Assembly: GCA_000146465.1 (NCBI GenBank)
Contig: CP001946.1
DNA length: 64,000 nt
Direction: 5' to 3' (one strand)
Positions 47,027 to 54,149 of the stretch are shown here, one piece after another; position 1 is the first letter of the stretch; every line of letters starts with the position of its first letter. The position numbers were made by a program, and so were the translations under genes. Under the pieces are notes generated by a model, which was given only the letters and a program-made list of their open reading frames with translations, was not told the origin of the DNA and did no database searches.

Positions 47027-48151
47027 TTATTTACTGAAGGATCGAGTATCTGCATTAACAACCTCTGTAAATGTGTATCCAGGAGACACCTTGCAGTTTA
47101 TAAGCACACTCCCAGGAAGGATTGTGGCTCCCATTCCAATTATAGAGCCTTCAATGTGTGATCCATGTCCAATCGAGACACTGGACATTACAATTGATGA
47201 TATTATTTTTGACTCTTCCCCGATATCACAATCCCTTCCAATTATCGAGTCAAGAAGAAGCACATTTCCTGTCTTTGTGTTGTTGTCAATCACATTACTT
47301 AGGTCCTTGAGGTTATACTTCTTCACATAGTCTTTTATGAATTTGGCATTTGATTCGCTTGTTTTAAGTTTCTTATCGGTACTAATTGAATGTCTTTTGA
47401 GCAGAGCGTTTACGCTTAAATAATTACTTATGCTTCTTATCTGATAGATGTAACTCTTCCCAGGCCTATGAATTCCAACAGGATTTGTCAAGGCCAGGTT
47501 CTTCACAACATTTGGAAGAAGATCATGCTTAAAGCTGAAATAATCCGGCTTGAACATCTTGAACAGCGAAGTCTTGAGCATGTAGAACTGGAGGATGTCA
47601 AGATCTTTCGTAAGAGTTAGACCCTTCTTCAATAGATGGAAGGGAATCTCTTCGTTACAGTCGTTTGAATAAAACATCAAGTCGTCCCCTTTGTATCCTA
47701 GAATAGATGTTTCTGATACAGCATTTCCTAGAATCACCATGAGTGCTTTCTTACTGTCGAAGTAGTGAAATGCCATTGCCTGAATGTCCATGTTGGTTAC
47801 AATATCTCCTTTGCACACAAGAACATCATTAGATGTTATCCTTGGATATAAACTTAAGAGAGACGCAACTGTTCCATCGTATGTGTCGATCCCCACATAT
47901 TCTACCGGTACATCGATATCTTCTCCCAAAGCACTCATGAGATCTTCCTTTTCCTCATTCAGCCCAACCACAAAAAACCTTTTTGAGACGCTCTTTAGGC
48001 ACTCCATTGTATGTAGAATCATTGGGCTATTCATGATTGGGAGGCATGCCTTTGAAAACTTCTCATTCACTATTGGAAACAGCTCTGTCCCAGGACCTAT
48101 CAAGATTATTATCTCAAACATATGAGAATAGGGGATGGAAAATGAATCCAA
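47027..48151 (-). CDS. Nucleotidyltransferase + left-handed beta-helix protein (mannose-1-phosphate guanylyltransferase / eIF2B-gamma family)
   Basis: The N-terminal IILIGPGTELFPI...KACLPIMNSPMILHTMECL resembles the GMPP ILVGG.GTRL.PLT...KPLV.F.N.PMILHQIEAL, with a degenerate G-rich loop. The C-terminal hexapeptide repeats are IGRDCDIGEESKI...IGHGSHIEGSIIGMGATI. Confidence 0.6.
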   Translation of the reverse strand: MDSFSIPYSHMFEIIILIGPGTELFPIVNEKFSKACLPIMNSPMILHTMECLKSVSKRFFVVGLNEEKEDLMSALGEDIDVPVEYVGIDTYDGTVASLLSLYPRITSNDVLVCKGDIVTNMDIQAMAFHYFDSKKALMVILGNAVSETSILGYKGDDLMFYSNDCNEEIPFHLLKKGLTLTKDLDILQFYMLKTSLFKMFKPDYFSFKHDLLPNVVKNLALTNPVGIHRPGKSYIYQIRSISNYLSVNALLKRHSISTDKKLKTSESNAKFIKDYVKKYNLKDLSNVIDNNTKTGNVLLLDSIIGRDCDIGEESKIISSIVMSSVSIGHGSHIEGSIIGMGATILPGSVLINCKVSPGYTFTEVVNADTRSFSK

Positions 48152-48197: not shown

Positions 48198-49424
48198 ATG
48201 TGTAGGAAGACTAAGGGAGTGTTCCTTTTGTTCTTTTCTGTAAGACTTGGCATAATGCTTTGGGAGGTTAGATTTCAGCACCTCTATTCCTCATATCTGG
48301 AAAGAGGACTGCCATGGTTTAAGCCAGATACTTTGACAGGAAAGATGGCTACTGATGGAAGATTGTTTGGCGATGCACAGCTCAAAGCTTCAAACCTTAG
48401 GCTCAAAAGCCTGTATAAAGAGATGAAAGCTCTTGTGCTGTACATGGGAGTTGTATTCTTGATATTCAACAACAAGATCCGAAGCAAAGCAATCAGGTTG
48501 TTGGGATTTCTTTGGATACCCAATTCAGAAGTAATGTTCCTATTACTTCTGATTTCCACAATTACCTTTATAGAGAAACTCTGTGGTGTAGGGCTCACAC
48601 TAGTAGAAGGCACGTGCAGTGTGAGATATATAGAGTATCCGTTTAATATGGTAGTTTTATTTCTTGTAGAGCTCCCACTCACAATATGCCTCATAATAAA
48701 GCTTTTTGAGCTCCTGAGGAAAAAGACTATGGCGACATTCTATGCTGCCTTTGTAATAAGCAACTTATTCAACACCTTTTGGAATGCAAGGATAGATAAG
48801 AACAGGCTAACCAAGGTTCCTCTTGAGAAGTTTCCGTCGAAACTACAAGCGATGCTTAAGTCCGAGGGACTGGAAGAATCGATCTACAAAGTTAAAGGCA
48901 CCCAAGAGAAAAAAAATGCATCTCTGATTGGATTTAGCAGCTTTAAAAGAATTGAAATAACCGGAGACTTTGACAAAGATCCAAAAAAACTATATCCTGT
49001 CCTGTTCCATGAAATAGGCCATTCGATTGATAACATTATACTAAAGAAAAAGATTATTATACACATAATAGTGGGATGCGAGGCGTTAGCATTTTGGTTG
49101 ATTTATGTAAAAGGAAGCAAGGCTTTTGGATTTTCAGACATAACGTCCGAGTCATTTGTCTTGATCATTCTTGCCATGTATCTGGTTCTTGGAAGGACTT
49201 TGATCCTTATCCCTTTAAATATGTATGTGCAGCGTTCGGAGTTATTTGCCGATGAAATTGCATTGGCAAACGGACATGGAAAAGAGCTTTCTCAAACACT
49301 GTTTGACATGGCTTTAGAGCACAGCACAGTTATTGATACGACATATCTTTTCAATGCGATAGCATCGTTACATCCTATTGTTAGAGAAAGAATCGATAGA
49401 TGTGGAAGTCTCCTGCAGAAATAG
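48198..49424 (+). CDS. Ste24-like M48 zinc metalloprotease (CAAX prenyl protease 1 family), paralog A
   Basis: Multi-TM protein. NASLIGFSSFKRIEI matches the Ste24 SNAYF.G....KRIVL. HExxH is LFHEIGHS, the downstream SRSELFADE corresponds to Ste24 EFQAD, and the C-terminal SLHPIVRERI corresponds to Ste24 SHPPL.ERI. Confidence 0.75.
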   Translation: MCRKTKGVFLLFFSVRLGIMLWEVRFQHLYSSYLERGLPWFKPDTLTGKMATDGRLFGDAQLKASNLRLKSLYKEMKALVLYMGVVFLIFNNKIRSKAIRLLGFLWIPNSEVMFLLLLISTITFIEKLCGVGLTLVEGTCSVRYIEYPFNMVVLFLVELPLTICLIIKLFELLRKKTMATFYAAFVISNLFNTFWNARIDKNRLTKVPLEKFPSKLQAMLKSEGLEESIYKVKGTQEKKNASLIGFSSFKRIEITGDFDKDPKKLYPVLFHEIGHSIDNIILKKKIIIHIIVGCEALAFWLIYVKGSKAFGFSDITSESFVLIILAMYLVLGRTLILIPLNMYVQRSELFADEIALANGHGKELSQTLFDMALEHSTVIDTTYLFNAIASLHPIVRERIDRCGSLLQK

Positions 49425-49449
49425 TAACTAAAATATCCCATATTTAGGA

Positions 49450-50040
49450 ATGAATGGAATTGAAGACAGCAATCCATTTGAAGAGCTTAAAGAATATGAA
49501 GTGGTTGTGGCATACGACGATGAAAACAAGAAGCTTTCCAACGTAATGAAGGATAGAGGGCTTGATTATGTCGAGGTGAATCTGGCGGTTTCTGAGAAGC
49601 TCAGGACAGAATTTATGAAACATTTTAGAGTTTCTGAACTCCCTGTGCTCTTGATTGAAGGAATACCTGCTCTTGACGATCCAAGTGAAAGGATTAAGGA
49701 GTATATTGAGAGAAAAGAGAAAAAATCCTTAGAGAAAATTCAGAGTGTGATTGATCCTAACAAGATTACTCTTTTCATTAAGGGATCCCCCGAACATCCA
49801 AGATGTGGATTCACCAAGTCCCTTATAGAAATTTTGTATGGCTTAGGAGTAACAAGGGATAAAATAGAATACCTTGATGTTCTTTCAGATGAGGATATTA
49901 GGGAGAGACTAAAAGAAATAAACAGATGGCCCACTTTTCCACAGGTATACATTAGGGGCCGATTCATAGGGGGGTTGGATATTGTCCGAAAGATGTCTGA
50001 AAAAGGAAAGCTTAAAGATGAACTCTCAGGAATAATCTGA
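49450..50040 (+). CDS. Monothiol glutaredoxin (Trx-like N-domain + CGFS-type Grx domain, Grx3/4/PICOT-like)
   Basis: LFIKGSPEHPRCGFTKSLIEIL...WPTFPQVYIRGRFIGGLDIV matches the monothiol Grx consensus (MKG.P..P.CGFS.......WPT.PQL...GE..GG.DI). Confidence 0.8.
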   Translation: MNGIEDSNPFEELKEYEVVVAYDDENKKLSNVMKDRGLDYVEVNLAVSEKLRTEFMKHFRVSELPVLLIEGIPALDDPSERIKEYIERKEKKSLEKIQSVIDPNKITLFIKGSPEHPRCGFTKSLIEILYGLGVTRDKIEYLDVLSDEDIRERLKEINRWPTFPQVYIRGRFIGGLDIVRKMSEKGKLKDELSGII

Positions 50041-50100
50041 AAATAAAACCTGTTGTTTGTATTCTTGATACATATTAAAAGAATTCCAACAAACAAAAAG

Positions 50101-51315
50101 ATGAAGTACCTTTCTCGAGGGATGTTCTATTTGTTCTTCATGCTTACGTATCTTGCCCAGATGATAGAGGTCTTGAATGTATTGATCACCAAAAGTCATC
50201 TGGACTCTGGACAAACAGGAATTGAAGAAGGACTAGCAACAAACGAAATGGCAAAGAAAGATCAGGACTATGCCCCCAAAGCCAAGAAAGCAATAGGAAA
50301 AAGAAACAAGGAGCTACTTGAGGATATAGTGGCACACACTATCCATTTTACCGCCAACATCTTGTTCTTTACTGGGATTGGAAAATCGTTTAGCATGAGA
50401 ATACTTGGCAAGATCTTTGGGGAGATATTTGACCTTGAGATTGTGTTCCTTACAGCCGTAATTTCGATGATTTCCCTTGATGGTTTTATAGAGTATATTG
50501 TCTGCTTGGTATATAAGAATCCGTCGCTAGAAATGATTTTCTTGTGGTGTTTCTTTGCAATTGTATTTGTTATCCCAACATGTATCCTCATTTCTATAAA
50601 GCTCTTGAGGATCTTTGGATCCAGTTTCGTAATTTCCTGTTATCTCTCCTACTTCATTCTGGAGATATCTGATATCTTATCTGTATCCAATGTGGATTTT
50701 AGTAAGATGGAGAAGGTGCCATCAAATATATTTTCGGAGAATGTCCAGGTTCTTATGAAGGACAGAGGGCTTTCGGATTCTATCTATAGAGAAATAAATC
50801 CGGGAAAGAACGTCAATGCAGCTCTTATAGGGATTGGCGGTGCTGAGAGGATTGAAATCTACGGAAAAGTCGAGAATATGAACGATGGACAGCTGGAATC
50901 TATATTGATTCATGAAGTAGGACATTCCTATGATGGAAGTTTGGTCAAGAAGATATCGGTCTTTTTGATTCTTCTGGGTTTTGAAATGATGCTTTTAGTA
51001 TTCTTGTACGATAACATAGCAAAAGAATTCATATGGAACAATATTTCGAAGGAGGGGTCATTTGTAGTGCTTGTATGCCTTTATTTTGCATCAATCCGTC
51101 CATGGTTGTTTATTCTGTATAACCTTACGTCTCAAAGTGCAGAGATGTACGCAGACCTTTTAACAAAACAATATAACTACAATGGAAAGCTGGCAGATAC
51201 TCTATACAAGATATCTGTGGACTCCTTTGATTTCCTGGCACCATCCTGGCTGTACAACAGCTTAAACTCGTTACATCCCAGTATAATGAACAGGATTGAA
51301 TATCTAAGCAACTAA
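50101..51315 (+). CDS. Ste24-like M48 zinc metalloprotease, paralog B (tandem duplicate of 48198-49424)
   Basis: Same architecture as paralog A: NAALIGIGGAERIEIYG, HExxH LIHEVGHS, SQSAEMYAD, C-terminal SLHPSIMNRIEYL. The preferred start is the Met at 50101. Confidence 0.75.
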   Translation: MKYLSRGMFYLFFMLTYLAQMIEVLNVLITKSHLDSGQTGIEEGLATNEMAKKDQDYAPKAKKAIGKRNKELLEDIVAHTIHFTANILFFTGIGKSFSMRILGKIFGEIFDLEIVFLTAVISMISLDGFIEYIVCLVYKNPSLEMIFLWCFFAIVFVIPTCILISIKLLRIFGSSFVISCYLSYFILEISDILSVSNVDFSKMEKVPSNIFSENVQVLMKDRGLSDSIYREINPGKNVNAALIGIGGAERIEIYGKVENMNDGQLESILIHEVGHSYDGSLVKKISVFLILLGFEMMLLVFLYDNIAKEFIWNNISKEGSFVVLVCLYFASIRPWLFILYNLTSQSAEMYADLLTKQYNYNGKLADTLYKISVDSFDFLAPSWLYNSLNSLHPSIMNRIEYLSN

Positions 51316-51399: not shown

Positions 51400-52113
51400 A
51401 TGCGCATCCCCAGGATGGAAGATTTTAAACAAAGTGTAAACACCTACAGCTCAGAAGGAAGAATACATCAGATTGAGTATGCAATGAAGGCGATGAATCT
51501 TGGAACAACAACAATAGGAATAAGAACCAAGGATTTTGCAATATTGTGCTCTGAGAAGAAAATATTATCTACTTTGCAGAATCCTAGAACAGTAGTGAAA
51601 CATTATGAGATCTACGACCACATTGTGCTTGGCTTTTCGGGGATAAGCGGAGACACAAAGACTATTGTAAAGAAATCTCGAGATTTTTGCATTTCTCATA
51701 TGCATATGTATGGAGAAAATGCTAGTGTAGAGAGGCTTCTGAAGTATCTTTCCAGCCTGAGTCTAAGGTTTGGAGAGGAGGACGAGGCTAAAATGATATT
51801 TCGAAGGCCTTTTGGAGTCTCACTAATTGTGGCAGGGTTTGATAGCGAGCCCAGGTTATATTCTTTGGATCCTTCCGGATCATATGTTAGCTACAAAGCA
51901 AAGGCTATAGGATCCGGACATGAAGTGGTTGAGGGTATTCTCGAGAACGAATATGAAGAATACAAGGAGCTTGACCAGTCCTTGAAAAAGGCTCTTTACA
52001 CCCTGTCAAAAGTGATGAAGGACAAGATCAATAAGGAGAATGTAGAGGTTGTGACGGTTACAAAAGAGGGAAACAAGTTTCTGACTCCAGAAGAAATATC
52101 GGTATATCTATGA
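51400..52113 (+). CDS. 20S proteasome alpha-type subunit (second alpha paralog in the window)
   Basis: YSSEGRIHQIEYAMKAM..GTTTIGIRTKDF alpha signature. Confidence 0.85.
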   Translation: MRIPRMEDFKQSVNTYSSEGRIHQIEYAMKAMNLGTTTIGIRTKDFAILCSEKKILSTLQNPRTVVKHYEIYDHIVLGFSGISGDTKTIVKKSRDFCISHMHMYGENASVERLLKYLSSLSLRFGEEDEAKMIFRRPFGVSLIVAGFDSEPRLYSLDPSGSYVSYKAKAIGSGHEVVEGILENEYEEYKELDQSLKKALYTLSKVMKDKINKENVEVVTVTKEGNKFLTPEEISVYL

Positions 52114-52141: not shown

Positions 52142-53050
52142 TTATGTTTCATCAGGTATGTCATACGTACTTAGATATCTATTTTTCTTCCTTACTCCTA
52201 TCTTCGTGCAGTATTCAGACTCAAAACTTACTTCACTGTCGGTATAGTCTTTTTTATAGTGCTTTTTGAGTTCAACAATAGCTCTGGTTAGAGAGTCTCT
52301 CTCTTTTAGTAGGCTAAACAAGGAAGGACTATAGACTCTATTCAAGATAGACTTAAGTTCTTCGTCTGTTGGAAGACATTTTCTTGCAAACTCTTTGAAG
52401 TAGAACTCGTCGACTTTTGGATTTCTATGAACTATGAGTCTTAATGCCTCAAGGAGACCTAGTTCATGGTATATGTACTTCAAAGACTCCAAGGAAAGTT
52501 GTTCCATATATTTTCTGTTGCAATGCTTTTTAAACAAGGCAATCTTTGAATTTCCGCACAGCTTATCCTTACATCCGTTGTTGTTATTGCAAAAATCCTC
52601 AAGAATCTTAGTGAAGTAGCTAAAGACATCGATGCTGAAATGAGTAAATAAGTATTTCAATATTCTGCCGATTATCTTGTTGTATGTATCCGATCCACAG
52701 CAAACCTTTTCGTTTTGTGTCTTCTCATGTATGAATATTTGTAATAGTAGCCGTTCTATTGTTTCATCACGGAAGTTTAAGGATGCAATCCTCTGCATTG
52801 CACCATCATAGTCCTCAAAATAGATATAGTTGTATAGTATTTCATGATTATATATAACCTTTTGGTTCCCGACTAGCTTGTGCTGAAGAGCTTGAATAGC
52901 CTTGTTTTTTTGGTTAGTTCTTCTGTAGATGCTTGCTAAGACCGAAGGATTTCTCCTCAAAATCTTCTTTGTTATACTTTTGTCCAACAGGCCTGTGTCA
53001 CAGTTGGGTGTCCCAAAAATAACCAAGTCCTTTTTTCTTATCAAGCTCAT
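52142..53050 (-). CDS. Hypothetical protein (302 aa)
   Basis: Long ORF with coding-like composition and several Cys pairs (CCGSDT; CKDKLCGNS). No recognisable family. Confidence 0.4.
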   Translation of the reverse strand: MSLIRKKDLVIFGTPNCDTGLLDKSITKKILRRNPSVLASIYRRTNQKNKAIQALQHKLVGNQKVIYNHEILYNYIYFEDYDGAMQRIASLNFRDETIERLLLQIFIHEKTQNEKVCCGSDTYNKIIGRILKYLFTHFSIDVFSYFTKILEDFCNNNNGCKDKLCGNSKIALFKKHCNRKYMEQLSLESLKYIYHELGLLEALRLIVHRNPKVDEFYFKEFARKCLPTDEELKSILNRVYSPSLFSLLKERDSLTRAIVELKKHYKKDYTDSEVSFESEYCTKIGVRKKNRYLSTYDIPDET

Positions 53051-53183
53051 GGATATTGATCTTAGGGTTTTGTATAAAATTCACATAATTGGTTGGTATG
53101 ATGTTCTGGAGAAATCGGCTTGTGATTGGACATTCAGTATAAGTGGGATTGGACGAGTATTGGATATAAGAAAGAGGAAAGCA

Positions 53184-54149
53184 ATGGGGATGGACACCAA
53201 GATTAAGATAGATCTAGACAAGGAGATGTATCCCGGGGGGTCTGAAGTAAGAGGAGCCGTTGACATAAAGATGAGGAGTCCTCTTCGGATAAGTAAGATA
53301 AATCTGGTGTTCTCTAAGACAACAAGACTAAAGATACAGGAGATTGAGAGAAAGGAAAATACAGAGAACAACGAAGTCGAGAAGATATATGATGGATACA
53401 GACATGAATTTGAGATATACTCAAGTGATGACCCATTAGAAGAGGTATCTAGTGGGCACCATCGATTCCCATTCCGATTCATGCTCCGGAGAGAAGACGA
53501 AGGATCTCTTGAAATAAAAGGAGTCTACTTTGATATCCTGTGCAATATAAGAAGTATATACGACTTATATGCAGAGATTTATATCCTTGGAGTTCACAAT
53601 CCGGCATATACTGTCCGAAGAGAGATACAAATAGTAGATCCCATCATGGAGCCCAGGAACTTTAATACAGCCATTGATGTGCTATCACCCATCTGCTTTC
53701 TAAGTAGGAGATATAACATCCGTCTTGAAGTTGACAAGGAATTCTATTACTCGGGAGACTGTCTAGTTACTGAAGCTTCTATACCATCTAAGAAGCCCAA
53801 GATTAAGAGAATGGAGTGCTTTATATATGAAATTCTCAGCGTTTCTGTGGAAGGAAAAGAGATTCTTAGGACAAAATACATTGGAGGGGGAGAGGCCGAA
53901 CATTATGATGGTGGAAGAGTCCTTCGGGCATCCCTGAAGATACCTTCAACAACACCATCCACTGTCATGGGCAGTAACTTCAGCATAAGAGTTGTTTTGT
54001 TCATAAACCTTGAGCTGTATAGAGGAACACCTGTCCGAATCAAGAAATACATTCATGTCATCAAGAAAAATATAATTCATCCAGAAATTGATTGTATGGA
54101 TGTTCTTGAGGGAGAAATATATCCGGAAAGAATACTTGTATTACCATAG
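53184..54149 (+). CDS. Arrestin-fold protein (arrestin-related / Vps26-like beta-sandwich)
   Basis: From the Met at 53184, IKIDLDKEMYPGGSEVRGAVDIKMRSPLRISKINLVFSKT is the typical arrestin N-domain pattern. The first 85 codons of the track ORF overlap the upstream convergent gene and are unlikely to be coding. Confidence 0.5.
   Translation: MGMDTKIKIDLDKEMYPGGSEVRGAVDIKMRSPLRISKINLVFSKTTRLKIQEIERKENTENNEVEKIYDGYRHEFEIYSSDDPLEEVSSGHHRFPFRFMLRREDEGSLEIKGVYFDILCNIRSIYDLYAEIYILGVHNPAYTVRREIQIVDPIMEPRNFNTAIDVLSPICFLSRRYNIRLEVDKEFYYSGDCLVTEASIPSKKPKIKRMECFIYEILSVSVEGKEILRTKYIGGGEAEHYDGGRVLRASLKIPSTTPSTVMGSNFSIRVVLFINLELYRGTPVRIKKYIHVIKKNIIHPEIDCMDVLEGEIYPERILVLP

What the first reader, a model, noticed from the sequence alone, without database searches (positions are those of the whole stretch)
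48198..51315. Tandem pair of divergent Ste24-like M48 metalloproteases bracketing a monothiol glutaredoxin
The genes at 48198-49424 and 50101-51315 are same-strand paralogs. Both keep HExxH (FHEIGHS and IHEVGHS), the downstream Glu (SRSELFADE and SQSAEMYAD), the Ste24-like KRIEI block and the C-terminal SLHP..RI. They are only moderately similar to each other, which points to an old duplication maintained under selection. A CGFS-type glutaredoxin gene sits between them on the same strand. Duplicated CAAX/prelamin-type proteases in a streamlined genome are unexpected and suggest sub-functionalisation, for example different substrates or translocon-clearing versus prenyl-protein processing.
Basis: partly seen in the sequence, partly recalled or inferred. 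Interest (0 to 1): 0.55.

Follow-up and report, generated by a model that had tools for sequence, protein, structure and literature searches.

The report
Known duplicated divergent Ste24 proteases, microsporidian
The two genes are real, old, intact copies of a membrane zinc protease related to Ste24 in the parasite Encephalitozoon intestinalis, but the duplication was described in 2013, and because this parasite lacks CaaX prenylation they probably do some other job than trimming prenylated proteins.

Summary

The interpretation needs correcting in three ways.
- They are not canonical Ste24 orthologues. They belong to a highly divergent, microsporidia-wide Ste24 clade that lacks a Pfam M48_N hit. 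The canonical copy (ECU02_1380 orthologue) is reported elsewhere in the genome.
- The expansion is published. Nakjang et al. [quoted passage not shown]
- Prenyl-protein processing is unlikely. Vargová et al. 2026 report CaaX prenyltransferases only in Nematocida and Hamiltosporidium among Eumicrosporea.

- The M48-Grx-M48 triplet is syntenic in seven genomes, including Ordospora and a deeper metagenomic relative. Nosema granulosis has only B at that site.
- A evolves about twice as fast as B (dN/dS about 0.17 against 0.08), and both are under purifying selection.

Verdict: real, already known, function still untested.

The parts
48198..49424 (+). Paralog A: 408-aa divergent Ste24-like M48 zinc metalloprotease. 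It is the orthologue of E. cuniculi ECU05_1370 and is the fast-evolving copy.
   Evidence: 100% match to P0001. Pfam PF01435 at 26.8 bits. AF2 pLDDT 83, pTM 0.81. Foldseek top hits are ZMPSTE24 4aw6 and Ste24p 4il3 at E 1e-9 over about 445 alignment columns. dN/dS about 0.17.
49008..49022 (+). HEIGH zinc-binding and catalytic motif of A (aa 271-275).
   Evidence: Invariant in all A and B orthologues.
49239..49241 (+). Glu348 of A, the predicted third zinc ligand. By my own knowledge of Ste24p and ZMPSTE24 it corresponds to E390 and E415.
   Evidence: It aligns to the E of 'THEYQAD' in Ste24p.
49450..50040 (+). Class II monothiol glutaredoxin, 196 aa. The active-site motif is CGFT at nt 49804-49815. 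It has an N-terminal extension of about 90 aa.
   Evidence: Pfam PF00462 at 1.1e-19. CGFT is invariant in 7 species. Best PDB hits are GLRX5 and GLRX3.
50101..51315 (+). Paralog B: 404-aa divergent Ste24-like M48 zinc metalloprotease, Eint_051450. It is the orthologue of ECU05_1390 and is the conservative copy, closest to the single syntenic gene of Nosema granulosis.
50911..50925 (+). HEVGH motif of B (aa 271-275).
51142..51144 (+). Glu348 of B, the predicted third zinc ligand.

Best explanation
The locus is a lineage-specific tandem duplication of the microsporidia-specific, highly divergent Ste24 paralogue. It is fixed in the Encephalitozoon/Ordospora lineage, with a monothiol glutaredoxin gene lying between the copies. 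Both products are intact integral-membrane zinc metalloproteases that keep the Ste24 architecture: seven long helices enclosing a chamber, with the HExxH...E site inside. B is the conservative copy that continues the ancestral function of the divergent clade. A is a faster-evolving derivative that has probably shifted substrate range. Encephalitozoon is reported to lack CaaX prenyltransferases, so I infer that the two enzymes act in a prenylation-independent way. The most likely roles resemble the non-CAAX roles of Ste24: cleaving polypeptides stalled in, or passing through, the ER membrane and translocon, or processing secretory and membrane cargo during spore formation. What is shown: paralogy, conservation, purifying selection, catalytic residues, fold, synteny. 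What is taken from papers: expression, the third canonical copy, absence of prenylation. What is inferred: the substrates and the cellular role.
Against: There is no biochemical, localisation or substrate evidence for either protein. The role is inferred from the family and from the absence of prenyltransferases, and that absence rests on HMM searches in one paper. dS is saturated (about 1 or more), so dN/dS values are approximate. The NJ tree does not resolve where the duplication falls relative to Nosema: the node joining A, B and Nosema has 45% support. Few sites are fixed differently between A and B (6 columns), so substrate divergence is not demonstrated.
Confidence: 0.8

Rival explanations
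1. The two genes are sub-functionalised CAAX prenyl proteases, with one or both trimming -aaX from farnesylated proteins.
For: Both have the Ste24 fold and catalytic residues. Database names such as 'CAAX prenyl protease 1 like protein' are attached to relatives.
Against: [quoted passage not shown] The GGTase I beta subunit was found only in rozellids. Rho GTPases have lost their CaaX boxes. Any remaining canonical function would more naturally fall to the separate gene ECU02_1380 listed. The database names are homology transfers, not tests.
Confidence: 0.07
2. The divergent clade, and hence this pair, was acquired from bacteria by horizontal transfer and did not arise by duplication of the eukaryotic Ste24.
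For: The best hits outside Microsporidia that carry a taxon name are bacterial (Nitrospirota, Spirochaetes, Clostridiales). The best non-microsporidian bit score is 83 (P0064, organism not determined), against 35 for yeast Ste24p with the same profile.
Against: The margin is small. B scores 54-75 bits to the canonical representatives I used as the bacterial set, 52 to human and 38 to yeast, whereas those representatives and the eukaryotic proteins score 170-240 bits to each other. The clade is therefore about equally remote from all of them. Nakjang et al. tested this with a CAT model and did not support HGT. The clade is present in every microsporidian examined here, Nematocida included.
Confidence: 0.08
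3. Copy A is a decaying or non-catalytic paralogue, a pseudo-protease retained for a structural role.
For: A evolves about twice as fast as B. Its Pfam score is weak at 26.8 bits. Its model has a low-confidence loop at residues 138-147.
Against: The reading frame is intact in all 7 genomes examined. dN/dS is about 0.11-0.18. Every catalytic residue is invariant across the whole A clade, including the 30%-identical Ordospora copy. ECU05_1370 is reported as expressed and up-regulated.
Confidence: 0.05

Closest known systems
Microsporidian divergent Ste24 clade (Nakjang et al. 2013, Genome Biol Evol 5:2285; E. cuniculi ECU05_1370 and ECU05_1390; N. parisii NEPG_00127)
   Same: A and B are the direct E. 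intestinalis orthologues: 62% and 72% identity, at the same chromosomal position and with the same neighbours. They have the same features as described in the paper: HExxH, multiple TM helices, bacterial-looking top hits, and an extra copy in Encephalitozoon.
   Different: Nothing essential differs.
Yeast Ste24p / human ZMPSTE24 (MEROPS M48A; PDB 4il3, 4aw6, 5syt)
   Different: Identity is only 15-18%. There is no Pfam M48_N (PF16491) match. The proteins are about 50-70 residues shorter. The Trp after HExxH (HEIGHW, HELGHW) is replaced by Ser. The known farnesylated substrates (a-factor, prelamin A) and the prenyltransferases that make such substrates are absent from the organism. A separate canonical-type copy is reported elsewhere in the genome.
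Bacterial Ste24-like M48 peptidases (e.g. Nitrospirota and Spirochaetes MAG proteins P0019, P0022)
   Same: Similar length of about 410 aa and the same catalytic motifs. They are the best-scoring taxon-named non-microsporidian hits.
   Different: The bacterial proteins have a strong PF16491 domain and are far closer to yeast and human Ste24 (170-240 bits) than to A or B (30-75 bits).
Class II (CGFS-type) monothiol glutaredoxins Grx5 / Grx3 (PICOT) - applies to the intervening gene only
   Same: The Grx domain aligns end to end with GLRX5 and GLRX3 at E about 1e-23, with a single active-site Cys.
   Different: The motif is CGFT in all seven species. The N-terminal extension of about 90 aa gives only a sub-threshold thioredoxin-like hit.

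Membership tests
Peptidase family M48 (Pfam PF01435) | Match to the family profile above the curated gathering score | tested here: met
   A scores 26.8 bits and B 41.9 bits against a cut-off of 20.3.
Peptidase family M48 (Pfam PF01435) | HExxH zinc motif plus a downstream Glu as third ligand | tested here: met
   HEIGH and HEVGH at aa 271-275 and E348 in both. These are invariant in 16 and in 23 aligned sequences. Metal binding itself was not tested.
Ste24/ZMPSTE24 subfamily (M48A) | Seven-TM alpha-helical chamber fold enclosing the active site | tested here: met
Ste24/ZMPSTE24 subfamily (M48A) | N-terminal five-helix domain recognisable as Pfam Peptidase_M48_N (PF16491) | tested here: not met
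   No PF16491 hit at E<=1 for A or B, nor for 9 other members of the microsporidian clade. A canonical Ste24 representative (P0064, organism not determined) scores 169 bits. The helices are present structurally but the sequence is too divergent.
Ste24/ZMPSTE24 subfamily (M48A) | Auxiliary active-site residues equivalent to ZMPSTE24 N265, H459 and R465 (numbering from my own knowledge) | tested here: met
   N240-A241, H392-P393 and R398 are invariant and align to NAYF, SHP and R in Ste24p.
CAAX prenyl protease (functional class, EC 3.4.24.84) | Cleavage of farnesylated CaaX substrates, which requires a prenyltransferase and CaaX proteins in the organism | not testable with these tools
Literature reports that the FTase and GGTase I subunits are undetectable in most Eumicrosporea and that Rho proteins have lost CaaX boxes, which argues against membership of the functional class.
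Microsporidian divergent Ste24 clade (Nakjang 2013) | Orthology to ECU05_1370 and ECU05_1390, and grouping with the single Nematocida copy NEPG_00127 apart from canonical Ste24 | tested here: met
   Best hits and conserved synteny with the E. cuniculi chromosome V pair. Nematocida NEPG_00127 was recovered by the clade profile at 4e-25. The NJ tree separates the core of the clade from canonical Ste24, which forms its own group at 100% bootstrap; the most divergent members (Hamiltosporidium, Nucleospora, Astathelohania) are not resolved and fall beside the canonical group with 21% support. That tree is only a rough test.
Class II monothiol glutaredoxin (intervening gene) | Grx fold with a single active-site Cys in a CGFS-type motif | tested here: met
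   PF00462 at 1.1e-19. The motif is the variant CGFT, invariant in 7 species. GLRX5 and GLRX3 are the best PDB hits.

The most novel reading that the evidence does not exclude
Encephalitozoon is reported to have no CaaX prenylation, yet it keeps three Ste24-type chamber proteases, two of them in this tandem pair. The divergent clade may therefore be an enzyme whose essential function is entirely prenylation-independent. Candidates are clearing the Sec61 translocon or maturing microsporidia-specific secretory cargo (spore-wall or polar-tube proteins) late in infection. Copy A would have been recruited to a lineage-specific set of substrates. If so, Microsporidia would be a natural system for separating the two roles of Ste24.
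Probability: 0.3. Interest if true: 0.5.

Novelty: already known. Interest (0 to 1): 0.25.

Why it matters
The gene pair is already in the literature as an example of family expansion against the general trend of gene loss in Microsporidia. What remains open is function. Every microsporidian examined here has this divergent Ste24 clade, and Nematocida keeps only this copy (Nakjang 2013). It is reported as up-regulated when spores form. It persists in organisms reported to lack the prenylation pathway that defines the textbook role of Ste24. That makes it a reasonable target for asking what Ste24-type chamber proteases do apart from CAAX processing, and possibly a parasite-specific protease target. 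The finding as stated does not change current understanding.

Tried and rejected
1. Assembly artefact: rejected. There is no DNA repeat longer than 18 nt, protein identity is 27%, and the arrangement is found in seven independent assemblies.
2. Dead copy: rejected. See the third rival explanation.
3. Word-index homologue searches, both single-sequence and profile, found only Encephalitozoon and Ordospora relatives plus weak bacterial hits. Only the exhaustive profile search revealed the microsporidia-wide clade.
4. I looked for remnants of A or Grx in the 2.7-kb gap upstream of the Nosema granulosis B orthologue. There is no ORF resembling either. No tblastn was run, so a degraded remnant is not excluded.
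5. Apparent truncation of A in a second O. colligata assembly (called as 235 aa): over the 5' 541 bp compared, which spans the start codon used in the first assembly and the later start called in the second, the DNA is identical, so this is an annotation difference.
6. Sites fixed differently between A and B: only 6 columns, none at catalytic positions. This gives no clear signature of changed specificity.
7. HGT signal: the bit-score matrix shows the clade is about equally far from bacterial and eukaryotic Ste24. This gives no support but is not decisive.
8. The afdb50 fold library was unavailable. The supplement tables of Vargová et al. are not held.
9. I could not retrieve the E. intestinalis canonical third copy.
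10. A Kyte-Doolittle scan alone flags only about 5-6 hydrophobic segments. The seven-helix count rests on the models.
Full report
**Source and gene content.** The window is chromosome V of Encephalitozoon intestinalis ATCC 50506. The products of 48198-49424 and 50101-51315 are 100% identical to its 'putative zinc metalloprotease' and 'Eint_051450'. The region is gene-dense and intron-free. In order it holds a PUA protein, an eIF2B-gamma-like gene on the minus strand, M48 copy A (408 aa), a 196-aa glutaredoxin, M48 copy B (404 aa) and a proteasome alpha subunit. The spacers A-Grx and Grx-B are 25 and 60 bp.

**Checking the observation.**
- Both proteins pass the Pfam threshold for Peptidase_M48.
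- They align end to end at 27% identity, E 1e-42.
- At the DNA level nothing longer than 18 nt is shared, so an assembly duplication is excluded.
- The quoted motifs exist, with minor misreadings. A has QRSELFADE, not SRSELFADE, and only A has KRIEI.
- The glutaredoxin is a class II monothiol Grx. Its closest solved relatives are GLRX5 and GLRX3 at about 1e-23.
- Its active site is CGFT rather than CGFS in all seven species examined.

**Which kind of Ste24?** Neither protein hits the Pfam N-terminal Ste24 domain PF16491. An exhaustive profile search of 1.84 billion representatives found 28 proteins at E<=1e-30, with more between 1e-26 and 1e-21.
- The 12 hits I could name down to E 2.7e-21 are all microsporidian: E. 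hellem, Nosema granulosis, Hepatospora, Spraguea, Pancytospora, Nematocida parisii NEPG_00127, Astathelohania (two), Nucleospora and Hamiltosporidium. Two further metagenomic proteins (P0030, P0031) carry no taxon name but sit in loci syntenic with Encephalitozoon. Further Astathelohania and Hamiltosporidium copies came in at about 1e-14.
- All nine tested also lack PF16491. A canonical representative (P0064, from a metagenome contig and named only 'STE24 endopeptidase'; its organism was not determined) scores 169 bits.
- In a BLAST bit-score matrix, yeast and human proteins and nine canonical representatives score 170-240 bits among themselves. I treated those nine as the bacterial set; four of them carry bacterial taxon names and the other five none. 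A and B score only about 30-75 bits to any of them.

The pair therefore belongs to a very divergent, microsporidia-wide Ste24 subfamily. It does not belong to the canonical CAAX/prelamin-type lineage.

**This is published.** Nakjang et al. 2013 (PMC3879972) state that all sampled Microsporidia except Nematocida have at least two Ste24 copies, and that one clade is highly divergent with bacterial-looking top BLAST hits. Their phylogeny does not support HGT. It fits a duplication in the last common microsporidian ancestor. [quoted passage not shown] They list the three E. cuniculi genes ECU02_1380, ECU05_1370 and ECU05_1390, all up-regulated late in infection. ECU05_1370 and ECU05_1390 are at the position orthologous to A and B. 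A later transcriptome paper cites the same expansion.

- Synteny. The M48-Grx-M48 triplet, with the same flanking genes, is present in E. cuniculi, E. romaleae, E. hellem and Ordospora colligata. It is also in an unnamed relative from a sequencing run and in a deeper metagenomic relative whose B is only 39% identical to this one.
- Nosema. In Nosema granulosis the syntenic site holds only a B-type gene: PUA and eIF2B-gamma upstream, proteasome alpha and arrestin downstream. The 2.7-kb gap there has no A-like or Grx-like ORF.
- Tree. A neighbour-joining tree recovers an A clade (99%) and a B clade (100%). Each has a deeper metagenomic sister. The node joining A, B and Nosema has only 45% support. 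This places the duplication before the Encephalitozoon/Ordospora split and leaves its relation to Nosema unresolved.
- Rates. Other microsporidian members resemble B (30-39% identity) more than A (24-28%).
- A diverges faster: Eint-Ocol identity is 30% for A and 52% for B.
- Nei-Gojobori dN/dS between E. romaleae and E. hellem is 0.17 for A and 0.08 for B. Comparison genes give 0.10 (Grx), 0.07 (eIF2B-gamma-like) and 0.02 (proteasome alpha).
- dS is about 1, so these ratios are approximate, but both copies are clearly under purifying selection.
- Specificity. Only six alignment columns are fixed differently between the A and B clades, and none is catalytic.

**Likely mechanism.** The shown facts are two intact Ste24-fold zinc proteases, expressed according to the literature and conserved for a long time.
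- Vargová et al. 2026 (PMC13393502) searched Microsporidia for the prenylation machinery.
- Among Eumicrosporea they found the shared FTase/GGTase I alpha subunit and the FTase beta subunit only in Nematocida and Hamiltosporidium.
- They found the GGTase I beta subunit only in rozellids, and Rho GTPases have lost their CaaX boxes. E. cuniculi was part of their data set.

If that holds, Encephalitozoon has no farnesylated CaaX substrates. I therefore infer a prenylation-independent function for A and B. The documented non-CAAX roles of Ste24 are clearing polypeptides stuck in the Sec61 translocon and surveillance of membrane-protein topology (abstracts listed). A role in chitin synthase trafficking was raised by Nakjang et al. 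These, or processing of secretory cargo during spore formation, are the most plausible roles. B would carry the ancestral function of the clade and A a derived one. None of this is tested.

**The glutaredoxin.** I found no evidence of a functional link between the Grx and the proteases. Microsporidian gene order is unusually conserved in general (gene-order section of Nakjang et al.), and the short spacers are typical of this genome. Its position between the copies is most simply an accident of how the duplication or a later insertion happened. It has been stable since before the Encephalitozoon/Ordospora split.

**Verdict.** It mislabels the genes as canonical CAAX/prelamin proteases and overstates the surprise. 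The feature is already known, so interest is low to moderate. It rests mainly on the unanswered question of what this divergent Ste24 clade does in organisms that lack CaaX prenylation.

Noticed in passing
window 49804-49815 (Grx gene 49450-50040): The monothiol glutaredoxin has CGFT in place of the canonical CGFS in all seven Encephalitozoon, Ordospora and related sequences. It also has an N-terminal extension of about 90 aa with only a sub-threshold thioredoxin-like hit. I did not determine whether it is a Grx3/PICOT-type or a Grx5-type protein.
   Followed up: partly
window 47027-48151 (-), 51400-52113 (+), 50053-51315 (+): The mechanical ORF starts are longer than the orthologues. The eIF2B-gamma-like ORF is 374 aa from a TTG, against 364 aa in orthologues, so the likely ATG is at 48121. 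The proteasome alpha ORF is 237 aa against 232, so the likely start is 51415. The copy B ORF extends to a TTG at 50053, but the database protein starts at ATG 50101.
   Followed up: partly
L005 3308-6001 (Nosema granulosis SBJO01000009.1): A 2.7-kb stretch with no called gene and only short ORFs lies exactly where A and Grx sit in Encephalitozoon. It could be degraded sequence or a repeat. It was not searched by tblastn.
   Followed up: partly
L002 4484-5191 against L001 3971-5191 (Ordospora colligata, two assemblies): Copy A is called as 235 aa in one assembly and 406 aa in the other. Over the 5' 541 bp compared (3960-4500 in both loci), which includes both called start codons, the DNA is identical, so this is a gene-calling difference and not a truncation.
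   Followed up: yes
P0057, P0060, P0076 (Astathelohania contejeani); P0063, P0074 (Hamiltosporidium): Other microsporidian lineages carry several divergent M48 copies: at least 3 in Astathelohania and at least 2 in Hamiltosporidium. This suggests repeated independent expansions beyond those listed in 2013.
   Followed up: no
PMC5680761, mass-spectrometry table: A 'CAAX prenyl protease 1' (Q8SSD6_ENCCU, 47.3 kDa) was identified by mass spectrometry among antigens recognised by antibodies raised against E. intestinalis spores. I could not determine which of the three copies this is. From its name it is probably the canonical one.
   Followed up: no
window 52929-54149 (+) and 52142-53050 (-): The arrestin-like ORF as listed (406 aa) overlaps the upstream minus-strand gene by about 120 nt. 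Orthologues are about 319 aa, so the true start is probably downstream.
   Followed up: no
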